From NCBI RefSeq assembly GCF_003334405.1, contig NZ_QOWM01000005.1: DNA of 64,000 nucleotides; one strand, given 5' to 3'. A program made the translations under genes and the position numbers. Positions 59,619 through 60,275 of this stretch are shown piece after piece (position 1 is the first letter of the stretch; every line of letters begins with the position of its first letter). This stretch comes from Escherichia coli (GTDB taxonomy: Bacteria > Pseudomonadota > Gammaproteobacteria > Enterobacterales > Enterobacteriaceae). The notes below the pieces were generated by a model that saw nothing but the letters and a program-made list of their open reading frames with translations, did not search any database and was not told the DNA's origin.

Positions 59619-59870
59619 ATACTGTATGGCCTGGAAGCTATATTTCGGGCCGTATTGATTTTCTTGTCACTATGCTCATCAATAAACGAGCCTGTACTCT
59701 GTTAACCAGCGTCTTTATCGGAGAATAATTGCCTTTAATTTTTTTATCTGCATCTCTAATTAATTATCGAAAGAGATAAATAGTTAAGAGAAGGCAAAAT
59801 GAATATTATCAGTTCTGCTCGCAAACGAATTCCCGTACACTGAACTCTCTGGCTCACTGAGGGCACCATC

Positions 59871-60143
59871 ATGGCACTCCCCCGTATTACCCAAAAAGAG
59901 ATGACTGAACGCGAGCAGCGTGAACTTAAAACACTGCTGGATCGGGCGCGGATTGCGCATGGTCGCGTATTGACCAACTCCGAAACCAACAGCATTAAGA
60001 AAGATTACATCGATAAATTAATGGTTGAGCGTGAGGCTGAAGCGAAAAAAGCCCGCCAGTTGAAGAAAAAGCAGGCTTATAAACCGGATCCTGAAGCGTC
60101 ATTTAGCTGGTCAGCAAATACGTCGACGCGCGGCAGGCGCTAA
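59871..60143 (+). CDS. yjbD: Small basic hypothetical protein YjbD (DUF3811-like)
   Basis: ORF 59871..60143 (90 aa); highly charged, coiled-coil-like. Confidence 0.75.
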   Translation: MALPRITQKEMTEREQRELKTLLDRARIAHGRVLTNSETNSIKKDYIDKLMVEREAEAKKARQLKKKQAYKPDPEASFSWSANTSTRGRR

Positions 60144-60275
60144 TCCACAATCAACGCCTGAGATTTTCACTCGTCAGTGTGAACACAATTTTCCCCTCAC
60201 CCTAACCCTTTTCCCGAAGGGGCGAGGGGACTGTCCGGGCACTTTTGGGCCGTTTTCATCAGTCTGAGGCGTTAA

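What the first reader, a model, noticed from the sequence alone, without database searches (positions are those of the whole stretch)
60144..60275. GC-rich nested inverted-repeat element between convergent yjbD and rluF
The 132-bp gap contains ttttcccctcaccctaacccttttcccgaaggggcgaggggac (about 60190-60232) with nested complementary arms (cccctc/gagggg, ccc/ggg), followed by gggcacttttgggccgttttc. It is not a canonical REP and not a simple terminator; it could be a compound bidirectional terminator or a member of a small dispersed repeat family.
Basis: seen in the sequence. Interest (0 to 1): 0.35.

Follow-up and report, generated by a model that had tools for sequence, protein, structure and literature searches.

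The report
Decayed BoxC repeat between yjbD and rluF
The GC-rich nested palindrome is a slightly decayed copy of BoxC, a known E. coli repeat family, inserted between two genes that otherwise touch; it is not a terminator, but the end of the yjbD mRNA maps at its hairpin.

Summary
The window is identical to E. coli K-12 MG1655 here, and the 132-bp yjbD/rluF spacer holds the nested arms described.

The element is one copy of BoxC, also published as the PIT element, TMECO and the HPG1 G-quadruplex motif. E. coli genomes carry a median of 18 copies. This copy matches the commonest K-12 type at 33 of 36 bases. Two G-to-A changes in the middle block make it fail the strict TMECO pattern, but strains HS and Z1323CEC0005 carry the intact form at the same locus. 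Its G-rich strand has already been melted in vitro as the "yjbD" G-quadruplex oligo.

The whole spacer is a derived insertion. About two-thirds of 5,426 E. coli genomes, and Salmonella, Yokenella and Enterobacter, have the two stop codons abutting or overlapping. The insert is flanked by a 10-11-nt direct repeat.

Published data argue against a bidirectional terminator. With Rho inhibited, transcripts read fully through in both directions. A strong yjbD-sense RNA 3' end maps 2 nt past the BoxC hairpin, most likely an exonuclease stop.

Verdict: a known family and a known copy, of low interest. How the family spreads, and why its core recurs in distant phyla, remains open.

The parts
60144..60275 (.). 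Whole yjbD/rluF spacer. It is a lineage-specific 132-bp insertion: about 121 bp of new DNA plus one copy of a 10-11-nt target repeat.
   Evidence: It is present in 1,770-1,773 of 5,426 E. coli genomes. The others have a locus exactly 132 bp shorter, with the stop codons abutting. Outgroups also have no spacer.
60135..60145 (+). Left direct repeat AGGCGCTAATC. It contains the yjbD stop codon TAA (60141-60143).
   Evidence: Read from the sequence. In the HS/Z1323 allele the last base differs, which leaves a 10-nt repeat.
60267..60277 (+). Right direct repeat AGGCGTTAATC. It supplies the first bases of the rluF stop codon (TCA on the + strand, 60276-60278).
   Evidence: It lies 132 bp from the left copy and starts exactly where homology to other BoxC loci ends.
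60146..60189 (+). Left part of the insert, unique to this locus. It holds ATCAACGCCTGAGA (60150-60163), which is complementary to 60263-60276, and TTTTCACTCGTCAGTGTGA (60164-60182), which resembles the BoxC tail end TTTTCATCAGTCTGA.
   Evidence: This part has one place per genome, and only in genomes that carry the spacer. The inverted repeat is I1, 14 nt and 86% complementary. The tail resemblance is my reading of the sequence.
60193..60229 (-). BoxC / TMECO core, type A. Read on the minus strand it is CCCCTCGCCCC-TTC-GGGAAAAGGG-TTA-GGGTGAGGGG. On the + strand the blocks are CCCCTCACCC 60193-60202, TAA 60203-60205, CCCTTTTCCC 60206-60215, GAA 60216-60218 and GGGGCGAGGGG 60219-60229.
   Evidence: 33 of 36 bases match the modal K-12 copies listed in Holder 2015 Table 1. 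It fails the strict TMECO pattern because of the T bases at 60210 and 60212, whereas the HS and Z1323CEC0005 alleles have C there and fit.
60192..60230 (+). Outer hairpin: TCCCCTCACCC / GGGCGAGGGGA with a 17-nt loop. It is the dominant predicted fold on both strands.
   Evidence: As RNA the hairpin alone folds at -19.7 kcal/mol (yjbD sense) and -23.0 kcal/mol (rluF sense).
60193..60215 (-). G-quadruplex motif GGGAAAAGGGTTAGGGTGAGGGG on the rluF-sense strand.
   Evidence: A regular-expression scan finds it. A review lists this oligo under 'yjbD', with a FRET melting temperature of 53.1 C in 100 mM K+. ViennaRNA with the G-quadruplex option still prefers the hairpin.
60230..60266 (+). BoxC 'tail', ACTGTCCGGGCACTTTTGGGCCGTTTTCATCAGTCTG. 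It is homologous to the sequence that follows BoxC at fimH/gntP, ygfF/gcvP and alx/sstT.
   Evidence: It includes a weak terminator-like hairpin with TTTTC at 60233-60250.
60232..60232 (+). Mapped RNA 3' end of the yjbD-sense transcript, 2 nt past the hairpin.
   Evidence: Adams et al. 2021 Term-seq, MG1655 position 4231270, minus strand, average read count 42,362.8. I mapped the coordinate to the window.
60268..60283 (+). Small palindrome GGCGTTAATCAGCGCC, formed by the last codons of the two genes and followed by CCTTCTTTTT.
   Evidence: It scores as a terminator-like site. The same palindrome exists in the empty allele (GGCGCTGATTAGCG).

Best explanation
The element is a single, slightly decayed copy of the BoxC repeat (also called the PIT element, TMECO, or the HPG1 G-quadruplex motif) together with its conserved tail.

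Origin. It arrived as part of an insertion of about 121 bp, flanked by a 10-11-nt duplication of the target. The insertion landed exactly between the abutting stop codons of the convergent genes yjbD and rluF, in an ancestor of the K-12-like third of E. coli. That the spacer is derived is shown. How it was inserted (transposition-like or repair-mediated) is inferred and not known.

What it is not. It is not a REP element and not an intrinsic terminator.

What it does. Both convergent transcripts cross the spacer and are stopped by Rho inside the opposite gene (published data). On the yjbD-sense RNA the C-rich strand folds into a hairpin of about -20 kcal/mol. The dominant yjbD mRNA 3' end maps 2 nt past this hairpin. 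The most likely reason is that 3'-to-5' exonucleases, trimming back from the Rho termination zone, stall at the hairpin, as they do at REP hairpins. The 3' end is shown; the trimming mechanism is inferred.

Other structures. The G-rich (rluF-sense) strand keeps four G-tracts and forms a G-quadruplex as an isolated oligo in vitro. The two G-to-A changes weaken the inner hairpin and the published triplex geometry. I see no evidence for a function specific to this locus beyond these by-products.
For: Identity:
- The core has a median of 18 places per E. coli genome.
- It matches the modal TMECO type A copies at 33 of 36 bases.
- HS and Z1323CEC0005 carry the canonical form at the same locus.
- The tail is homologous to the tails of other BoxC loci.
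- The family is described in PMC4666352, PMC5100583 and PMC2267715.
- This exact G-run appears as the 'yjbD' G-quadruplex oligo in PMC11170735.

Insertion:
- 1,773 of 5,426 genomes have the spacer, and the rest are exactly 132 bp shorter with abutting stops.
- Salmonella, Yokenella, Enterobacter soli and a divergent 'E. coli' all have abutting or 4-bp-overlapping stops.
- The direct repeat is AGGCG[C/T]TAAT(C), and the right end of family homology is flush with it.

Transcript behaviour:
- The Term-seq 3' end maps to window position 60232.
- The lldD BoxC shows a 3' end at the same relative position, and the cstA BoxC shows one nearby.
- Rho termination regions lie at about 60411 (+ strand) and 59933 (- strand), with full read-through when bicyclomycin is added.
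- No U-tract follows the hairpin.
Against: - Fold z-scores for the core are unremarkable (-1.0 to -1.8).
- The Rho-region calls use 800-nt windows, so their positions are coarse. Bicyclomycin also raises other antisense transcription.
- The 3' end is listed in only one of three growth conditions.
- No 3' end is listed on G-rich-strand transcripts at any BoxC, although that hairpin is predicted to be at least as stable. A pure exonuclease-block model does not explain this asymmetry.
- The direct repeat overlaps a target that is itself a palindrome and under selection (two stop codons), so it may not be a true target-site duplication.
- The other polymorphic BoxC locus I aligned (tauD/hemB) shows replacement of the spacer, not a clean insertion with flanking repeats.
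Confidence: 0.8

Rival explanations
1. The spacer is a compound bidirectional intrinsic terminator that ends both yjbD and rluF transcription.
For: - The spacer sits between convergent genes.
- Stable hairpins are predicted on both strands.
- Two weak terminator-like sites lie on the + strand, at 60233-60250 and 60268-60283.
- A strong yjbD-sense 3' end maps in the spacer.
Against: - No U-tract follows the BoxC hairpin on either strand.
- The scan finds 3 terminator-like sites where shuffles give 1.6, and none on the minus strand.
- With Rho inhibited, coverage downstream equals coverage upstream in both directions.
- No rluF-sense 3' end is listed in the spacer.
- The literature reports no terminator activity for PIT/BoxC elements.
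- Two-thirds of E. coli genomes and all outgroups examined manage without any spacer.
Confidence: 0.07
2. The element is a regulatory DNA switch (intrastrand triplex, G-quadruplex, hairpin or duplex) kept by selection to control neighbouring genes or replication.
For: - Isolated family oligos form a triplex and a G-quadruplex in vitro.
- This copy's G-run melts at 53.1 C as a G-quadruplex.
- The core is conserved across distant bacteria.
Against: - In-vivo DMS footprinting and double-stranded CD/NMR gave no triplex signal.
- The family shows no bias in position, orientation or neighbouring gene function.
- This copy lies at the 3' ends of both genes, is absent from most E. coli, and has lost the canonical middle block.
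- The hairpin outcompetes the G-quadruplex in the folding model.
Confidence: 0.08
3. The element is the inactive half of a palindromic mobile element of the REPIN or MITE kind. The inverted BoxC doublet is the mobile form, moved by an unidentified transposase, and this locus records one transposition event with a target-site duplication.
For: - The insertion is clean and flanked by a 10-11-nt direct repeat.
- The family is polymorphic in presence and copy number, from 1 to 143 per genome in the literature.
- Doublets (unit, spacer, inverted unit) are the rule in Pseudomonas and in Verrucomicrobia and Deltaproteobacteria genomes assembled from metagenomes (MAGs).
- In one Chloroflexi MAG the core sits inside a MITE of about 165 bp with IS5-type terminal repeats and CTAA/TTAG duplications.
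Against: - No transposase is linked to BoxC in E. coli, and Holder et al. found no link to mobile elements.
- The IS5-type terminal repeat is confined to that one Chloroflexi MAG.
- The E. coli tails are not significantly similar to the IS5 terminal repeat (mean z = 0.33).
- The left 44 nt of this insert match no other copy.
- tauD/hemB shows replacement without flanking repeats.
Confidence: 0.3
4. The palindrome is a chance GC-rich sequence of no particular identity.
For: Fold z-scores for the core are weak. The 16-mer occurs once in the window, where 0.21 is expected with up to 3 mismatches.
Against: The core has 18 copies per genome, matches published copies at 33 of 36 bases, shares a homologous tail with them, and has a canonical ortholog in other strains.
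Confidence: 0.01

Closest known systems
BoxC, also published as PIT (potential intrastrand triplex) element, TMECO, and the HPG1 'G-quadruplex-hairpin-duplex switch' motif (Bergler 1992 and Bachellier 1990s, cited; Hoyne/Maher 2000-2002; Holder 2015, PMC4666352; Kaplan 2016, PMC5100583)
   Same: - The three-block architecture and the TTA second loop of type A are the same.
- It matches the modal K-12 copy at 33 of 36 bases.
- It is intergenic and dispersed in many copies.
- The tail is homologous.
- The locus is variable between strains, as reported for the family.
   Different: - The middle block is GGGAAAAGGG instead of GGGGAGAGGG. It therefore fails the strict TMECO pattern and is absent from Holder's list of 23 and Kaplan's HPG1 list of 16.
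- It is a single unit, not one of the inverted pairs.
REP / BIME elements as mRNA 3'-end stabilisers
   Same: It works alike. Both are GC-rich extragenic hairpins in a 3' UTR, with the stable RNA 3' end mapping at the foot of the hairpin, downstream of which transcription continues. This comparison rests on established knowledge of REP function.
   Different: The sequence is unrelated and lacks the GTAG/CTAC signature. No RAYT transposase is known for BoxC. The family has 18-31 copies per genome rather than hundreds. Stabilisation itself has not been measured here.
Intrinsic (Rho-independent) terminators
   Same: Both have a GC-rich stem-loop at the end of a gene with an RNA 3' end nearby.
   Different: There is no U-tract. 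The 3' end lies 2 nt after the stem rather than 7-9 nt into a U-run. Read-through is complete when Rho is inhibited.
MITEs and REPINs (non-autonomous palindromic mobile elements)
   Same: It is short and palindromic, varies in copy number, appears here as an insertion flanked by a short direct repeat, and related elements elsewhere occur as doublets.
   Different: There are no defined terminal inverted repeats at the unit ends in E. coli, no partner transposase, and no consistent duplication at the second locus examined.

Membership tests
BoxC / PIT / TMECO | Strict pattern CCCTCNCCC-N3-6-GGGNGAGGG-N3-GGGNGAGGG (Holder 2015) | tested here: not met
   The window copy reads CCCTCGCCCC-TTC-GGGAAAAGGG-TTA-GGGTGAGGGG, so the middle block fails. 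The alleles of HS and Z1323CEC0005 at the same locus do fit. The failure is therefore decay of a true member, by two C-to-T changes at 60210 and 60212.
BoxC / PIT / TMECO | Sequence similarity to the family consensus | tested here: met
   33 of 36 bases are identical to six of the 23 listed MG1655 copies, and 32 of 36 to seven more.
BoxC / PIT / TMECO | Dispersed, multi-copy and intergenic | tested here: met
   The core has a median of 18 places per genome and up to 31, in 5,425 of 5,426 genomes. This copy lies between two stop codons.
BoxC / PIT / TMECO | Shared flanking sequence beyond the 36-nt motif | tested here: met
   The tail GGGGACTGTCCGGGCAC...CATCAGTCTGA aligns with the tails at fimH/gntP, ygfF/gcvP and alx/sstT.
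BoxC / PIT / TMECO | Elevated between-strain variability of the locus | tested here: met
   The spacer is polymorphic for presence (1,773 of 5,426 genomes). The two filled alleles differ at 10-12 positions, all but one of them inside the 132-bp spacer.
BoxC / PIT / TMECO | Single strand forms a triplex or G-quadruplex in vitro | not testable with these tools
   A review reports a FRET melting temperature of 53.1 C for this exact G-run. Triplex formation was shown only for canonical copies.
REP / BIME | Imperfect palindrome of about 35 nt with a conserved GTAG/CTAC end, hundreds of copies, bound by RAYT | tested here: not met
   The sequence has no such motif. It has 18 copies per genome, not hundreds. 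The literature treats BoxC and PU-BIME as separate families.
Intrinsic terminator | GC-rich hairpin directly followed by a U-tract | tested here: not met
   The hairpin is followed by CTGTCCGGG on the + strand and AAAATTGTG on the - strand. Only weak + strand sites are found elsewhere in the spacer.
Intrinsic terminator | Termination independent of Rho | tested here: not met
   Published coverage with bicyclomycin, downstream/upstream, is 392/355 (yjbD sense) and 93/100 (rluF sense). These are literature data, not my own experiment.
MITE | Terminal inverted repeats plus a target-site duplication of fixed length | tested here: inconclusive
   A 10-11-nt direct repeat and a 14-nt inverted repeat (86% complementary) flank the insert. 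However, the target is itself a palindrome, the unit ends are not inverted repeats, and tauD/hemB shows no duplication.
Rfam RNA families | Match to any curated covariance model | tested here: not met
   The only match is a chance-level one (Antizyme_FSE, 18 bits against a gathering score of 40, E = 0.83). Eight related loci gave no matches.

The most novel reading that the evidence does not exclude
BoxC singletons such as this one are dead halves of a mobile palindromic doublet found across bacteria (unit, spacer, inverted unit; about 115-150 nt). The 37-nt core is nearly identical in Proteobacteria and in Chloroflexi, Verrucomicrobia, Thermodesulfobacteriota, Aerophobetes and Planctomycetes genomes, where it rides inside lineage-specific carriers. 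The yjbD/rluF spacer would then be a rare clean record of one insertion event, with an ancestral empty site and a 10-11-nt duplication. The C-strand RNA hairpin would be a general mRNA 3'-end former.
Probability: 0.25. Interest if true: 0.5.

Novelty: already known. Interest (0 to 1): 0.18.

Why it matters
For the scan, this closes the finding. It is a known repeat family, and this very copy has been used as a G-quadruplex test oligo.

Three small additions may be useful to people who work on bacterial repeats.

1. This locus gives an unusually clean polarity. A zero-length spacer is ancestral across Enterobacteriaceae, so the BoxC-bearing 132 bp is an insertion with a short flanking duplication. 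That bears on the unresolved question of how BoxC spreads.

2. Published Term-seq rows place RNA 3' ends at the foot of BoxC hairpins at three loci (yjbD, lldD, cstA), and only on C-rich-strand transcripts. Earlier reporter assays found no terminator activity. A REP-like role as an exonuclease stop would reconcile the two results.

3. The core recurs, with its hairpin partner, well outside the Proteobacteria.

Tried and rejected
1. IS5-derived MITE hypothesis for E. coli BoxC. In the Chloroflexi MAG SB0662_bin_28 the core lies in a MITE whose ends (GGAAagTCTgAAcAAGTCCCC) resemble the E. coli IS5 terminal repeat (GGAAGGTGCGAACAAGTCCCT). I confirmed the IS5 ends from IS5A. The same terminal repeat is not enriched next to the core in any other lineage. 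The 13 E. coli tails align to the IS5 repeat no better than shuffles do (mean z = 0.33, best p about 0.08). Rejected for E. coli.

2. Structured-RNA family. Rfam gave nothing. The Pseudomonas and Verrucomicrobia doublets fold as one long palindromic stem (z = -4 to -15) rather than a specific multi-helix RNA. I did not build a covariance model, because copies within one genome are not independent.

3. Empty sites at other BoxC loci, as a test for target duplications. At tauD/hemB the alternative allele is a different 39-nt spacer, which is a replacement. zntA/tusA and aaeR/tldD are nearly fixed. frlR/yhfS is confounded by gain and loss of the frl region.

4. Further 3'-end datasets. The TERMITe supplements do not mention these genes, and the nanopore paper has no supplements held.

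5. Lost or uninformative calls. The first two literature searches returned nothing relevant.

Full report
**The observation.** The window around the finding is identical to E. coli K-12 MG1655. lysC, yjbD, rluF and pepE are recognisable from the open reading frames and from the RefSeq annotation of the matching stretch. yjbD (59871-60143, +) and rluF (60276-61148, -) converge on a 132-bp gap. The quoted string is at 60189-60231. The main inverted repeat has arms at 60192-60202 and 60220-60230, 11 nt long, 91% complementary, with 17 nt between them.

Folding alone is only modestly better than shuffles. The spacer as RNA gives z = -2.6 and -1.8. The 49-nt core as DNA gives z = -1.4 to -1.7. By that criterion the finding would be borderline.

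**Identity.** The 51-nt core has a median of 18 and up to 31 places per E. coli genome, in 5,425 of 5,426 complete genomes. A full-text search for the sequence led to three relevant papers:
- Holder et al. 2015 (PMC4666352).
- Kaplan et al. 2016 (PMC5100583).
- A 2024 review of bacterial G-quadruplexes (PMC11170735).

Holder et al. state that the motif was first described as BoxC in the 1990s. It was rediscovered as the PIT (potential intrastrand triplex) element by the Maher laboratory in 2000, and they rename it TMECO. Their pattern is CCCTCNCCC-N3-6-GGGNGAGGG-N3-GGGNGAGGG. An independent survey also lists BoxC among the known E. coli stem-loop families, next to PU-BIME and ERIC.

On its minus strand the window copy reads CCCTCGCCCC-TTC-GGGAAAAGGG-TTA-GGGTGAGGGG. 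It matches the commonest MG1655 type ('A mm') at 33 of 36 positions. Two G-to-A changes in the middle block make it fail the strict pattern. This explains why it is missing from Holder's table of 23 copies and from Kaplan's HPG1 list.

Strains HS and Z1323CEC0005 carry the canonical CCCTCTCCCC at the same locus. The K-12 copy is therefore a decayed true member, not a look-alike. The review lists exactly GGGAAAAGGGTTAGGGTGAGGG under 'yjbD', with a FRET melting temperature of 53.1 C in 100 mM K+. This very copy has thus already been handled as a G-quadruplex oligo. Rfam has no family for it.

**The unit is longer than the published motif.** The 40 nt to the right of the core (GACTGTCCGGGCACTTTTGGGCCGTTTTCATCAGTCTGAG) have extra matches at fimH/gntP and alx/sstT. 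I aligned twelve MG1655 BoxC loci in the same orientation. They share a tail, GGGGAC[CT]G..CG.GC.C, which continues in a subset up to ...TTGTCATCAGTCTGA. The unit in the window runs from about 60190 to 60266. The 47 nt to the left of the core (60146-60192) occur nowhere else in any E. coli genome.

**The spacer is a derived insertion.** A 432-bp query spanning both gene ends matches all 5,426 genomes. Only 1,773 hold the spacer. In every sampled record without it the matched stretch is exactly 132 bp shorter.

In three such genomes (2017.15.01CC, UTI89 and CFSAN027346) the annotation puts the last base of yjbD next to the first base of rluF. The alignment shows ...GGCAGGCGCTGA|TTAGCG.... I reached outgroups through YjbD homologues:
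- Salmonella enterica and Yokenella have the two genes overlapping by 4 bp.
- Enterobacter soli and a divergent 'E. coli' have them abutting.

A zero-length spacer is therefore ancestral.

The filled allele carries AGGCGCTAAT(C) at 60135-60145 and AGGCGTTAAT(C) at 60267-60277. The right end of family homology is flush with the right copy. This looks like a target-site duplication, but I hold that loosely for three reasons:
- The target is itself a palindrome, because both proteins end in Gly-Arg-stop.
- Both repeat copies are under selection, because they supply the stop codons.
- The left 44 nt of the insert are unexplained. They hold an inverted copy of the right junction and a stretch that resembles the tail end.

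The two alleles also use swapped stop codons: TAA/TGA in the filled allele and TGA/TAA in the empty one. At the only other polymorphic locus I could resolve, tauD/hemB, the alternative allele is a different 39-nt spacer with its own hairpin. That is a replacement, with no flanking repeats. It fits the 'intergenic changes' category of Holder et al..

**What it does.** The literature reports the following for this family:
- No promoter or terminator activity.
- No effect on polymerases in vivo.
- No triplex signal in double-stranded DNA or by in-vivo DMS footprinting.
- No bias in the function or orientation of neighbouring genes.
- Elevated local variability between strains.

For this locus there is direct published evidence. 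Supplementary file 1 of Adams et al. 2021 (PMC7815308) lists a Term-seq 3' end at MG1655 position 4231270 on the minus strand, with an average read count of 42,362.8. I checked the row format against the sgrS row, which shows that the 3' nucleotide is position 51 of the 61-nt string. I checked the coordinate against the RefSeq gene positions. The end is the T at window 60232, 2 nt past the last pair of the BoxC hairpin, on the yjbD-sense strand.

The same file holds a 'primary' lldD 3' end at the same relative position of another BoxC, and one about 10 nt further along at the cstA/ybdD BoxC. No row contains the G-rich strand.

Supplementary file 2 of the same paper lists Rho termination regions on both strands beyond the spacer:

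| MG1655 position | Strand | Window position | Rho score | Coverage without bicyclomycin (upstream / downstream) | Coverage with bicyclomycin (upstream / downstream) |
|---|---|---|---|---|---|
| 4231091 | minus (yjbD sense) | about 60411, inside rluF | 4.27 | 120 / 31 | 355 / 392 |
| 4231569 | plus (rluF sense) | about 59933, inside yjbD | 3.15 | 88 / 26 | 100 / 93 |

With Rho inhibited, coverage does not drop across the spacer in either direction. This argues against Rho-independent termination there.

The simplest reading is as follows. Both transcripts cross the spacer and are ended by Rho in the opposite gene. The yjbD mRNA is then trimmed back to the hairpin, which folds at -19.7 kcal/mol, much as happens at REP hairpins. 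The trimming step is my inference. The absence of matching ends on G-rich-strand transcripts is not explained by it.

**Structure of this copy.** The two substitutions leave three mismatches in the inner stem. On both strands the predicted fold is therefore the outer stem with a 17-nt loop. The four G-tracts remain. ViennaRNA with its G-quadruplex option still prefers the hairpin.

**Beyond E. coli.** By my own arithmetic, about 140 chance matches are expected over the whole 298-Gb collection. The hits, however, are clumped within genomes: 36 in one Chloroflexi MAG, 26 in Pseudomonas nitritireducens and 9 in Ensifer sesbaniae.

About 100 of the 128 copies carry the hairpin partner, which the search pattern did not require. 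The flanks are lineage-specific. In Pseudomonas, Verrucomicrobia and some Deltaproteobacteria the element is an inverted doublet that folds as one long palindrome. In the Chloroflexi MAG it sits in an IS5-type MITE, but that link does not extend to other lineages or to E. coli.

Holder et al. reported the strict motif only in proteobacterial genomes. The wider spread is therefore an incremental extension. I did not pursue it further.

**Verdict.** The 'dispersed repeat family' reading is right and the 'bidirectional terminator' reading is not supported. The family and this copy are already known, so interest is low. The open questions belong to the family, not to this locus: how it is inserted, and why its core is so widely conserved.

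Noticed in passing
window 60135-60145 and 60267-60283; L121, L122, L124 at 440-460: The ends of yjbD and rluF form a palindrome (GGCGCTNATNAGCGCC) because both proteins end in Gly-Arg-stop. The filled and empty alleles use swapped stop codons: TAA/TGA in the filled allele and TGA/TAA in the empty one. The central hexamers, TAATCA and TGATTA, are reverse complements of each other. On the + strand the palindrome followed by CCTTCTTTTT scores as a terminator-like site lying inside the rluF coding end.
   Followed up: partly
L048-L077 (Chloroflexi MAG SB0662_bin_28): A MITE of about 165 bp is present in more than 25 copies. Its ends resemble the E. coli IS5 terminal repeat, and it is flanked by CTAA/TTAG/CTAG duplications. 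It carries a BoxC-like three-block motif just inside each end. The IS5-type repeat is not associated with the core in the other 20 or so genomes sampled.
   Followed up: partly
L095-L120 (Pseudomonas nitritireducens), L088-L093, L025/L029/L030 (Verrucomicrobia), L013/L014: Here BoxC occurs as an inverted doublet: CCCCTCACCC-TAA-hairpin, then a 45-70-nt spacer, then hairpin-CTG-GGGTGAGGG, 102-196 nt in all. It folds as one long palindrome (z = -4 to -15). This is a circular permutation of the E. coli type B / type A pairs. The first bases of the spacer (GGGGACTGTCCGG) match the tail of the E. coli window copy.
   Followed up: partly
MG1655 3781065 (+) at the lldD BoxC and 632098 (+) at the cstA/ybdD BoxC, in Adams 2021 supplementary file 1: Other BoxC copies also have Term-seq 3' ends at or near the foot of the hairpin on C-rich-strand transcripts. 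No listed 3' end lies downstream of the G-rich strand of any BoxC.
   Followed up: partly
L137 (K-12 tauD/hemB) against L146, L147 and L148: About one-third of E. coli genomes have, instead of the BoxC-bearing tauD/hemB spacer, an unrelated 39-nt spacer with a hairpin (ATGCCGGGTT...AACCCGGCAT). One isolate from mussels has a further 51-bp insertion next to the BoxC core, bounded by GGACGGTC / GGACAGTC.
   Followed up: partly
window 59619-59870; L126, L128, L129, L130: In Salmonella, Yokenella and Enterobacter soli a gene for a 313-314-aa SBF-like transporter (PF01758/PF13593) lies just upstream of yjbD, between lysC and yjbD in L130. In the E. coli window only 252 bp separate lysC from yjbD.
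   Followed up: no
window 60130-60290 against L149 (HS) and L123 (Z1323CEC0005): The two versions of the filled allele differ at 10-12 positions, all but one of them inside the 132-bp spacer. Three of these changes lie in the small tail hairpin. I did not measure divergence in the flanking genes, so I cannot say whether the spacer evolves faster than its surroundings.
   Followed up: partly
window 60193-60237: The only Rfam match is a sub-threshold hit to the antizyme frameshift element (18 bits against a gathering score of 40, E = 0.83). I take it as chance.
   Followed up: no
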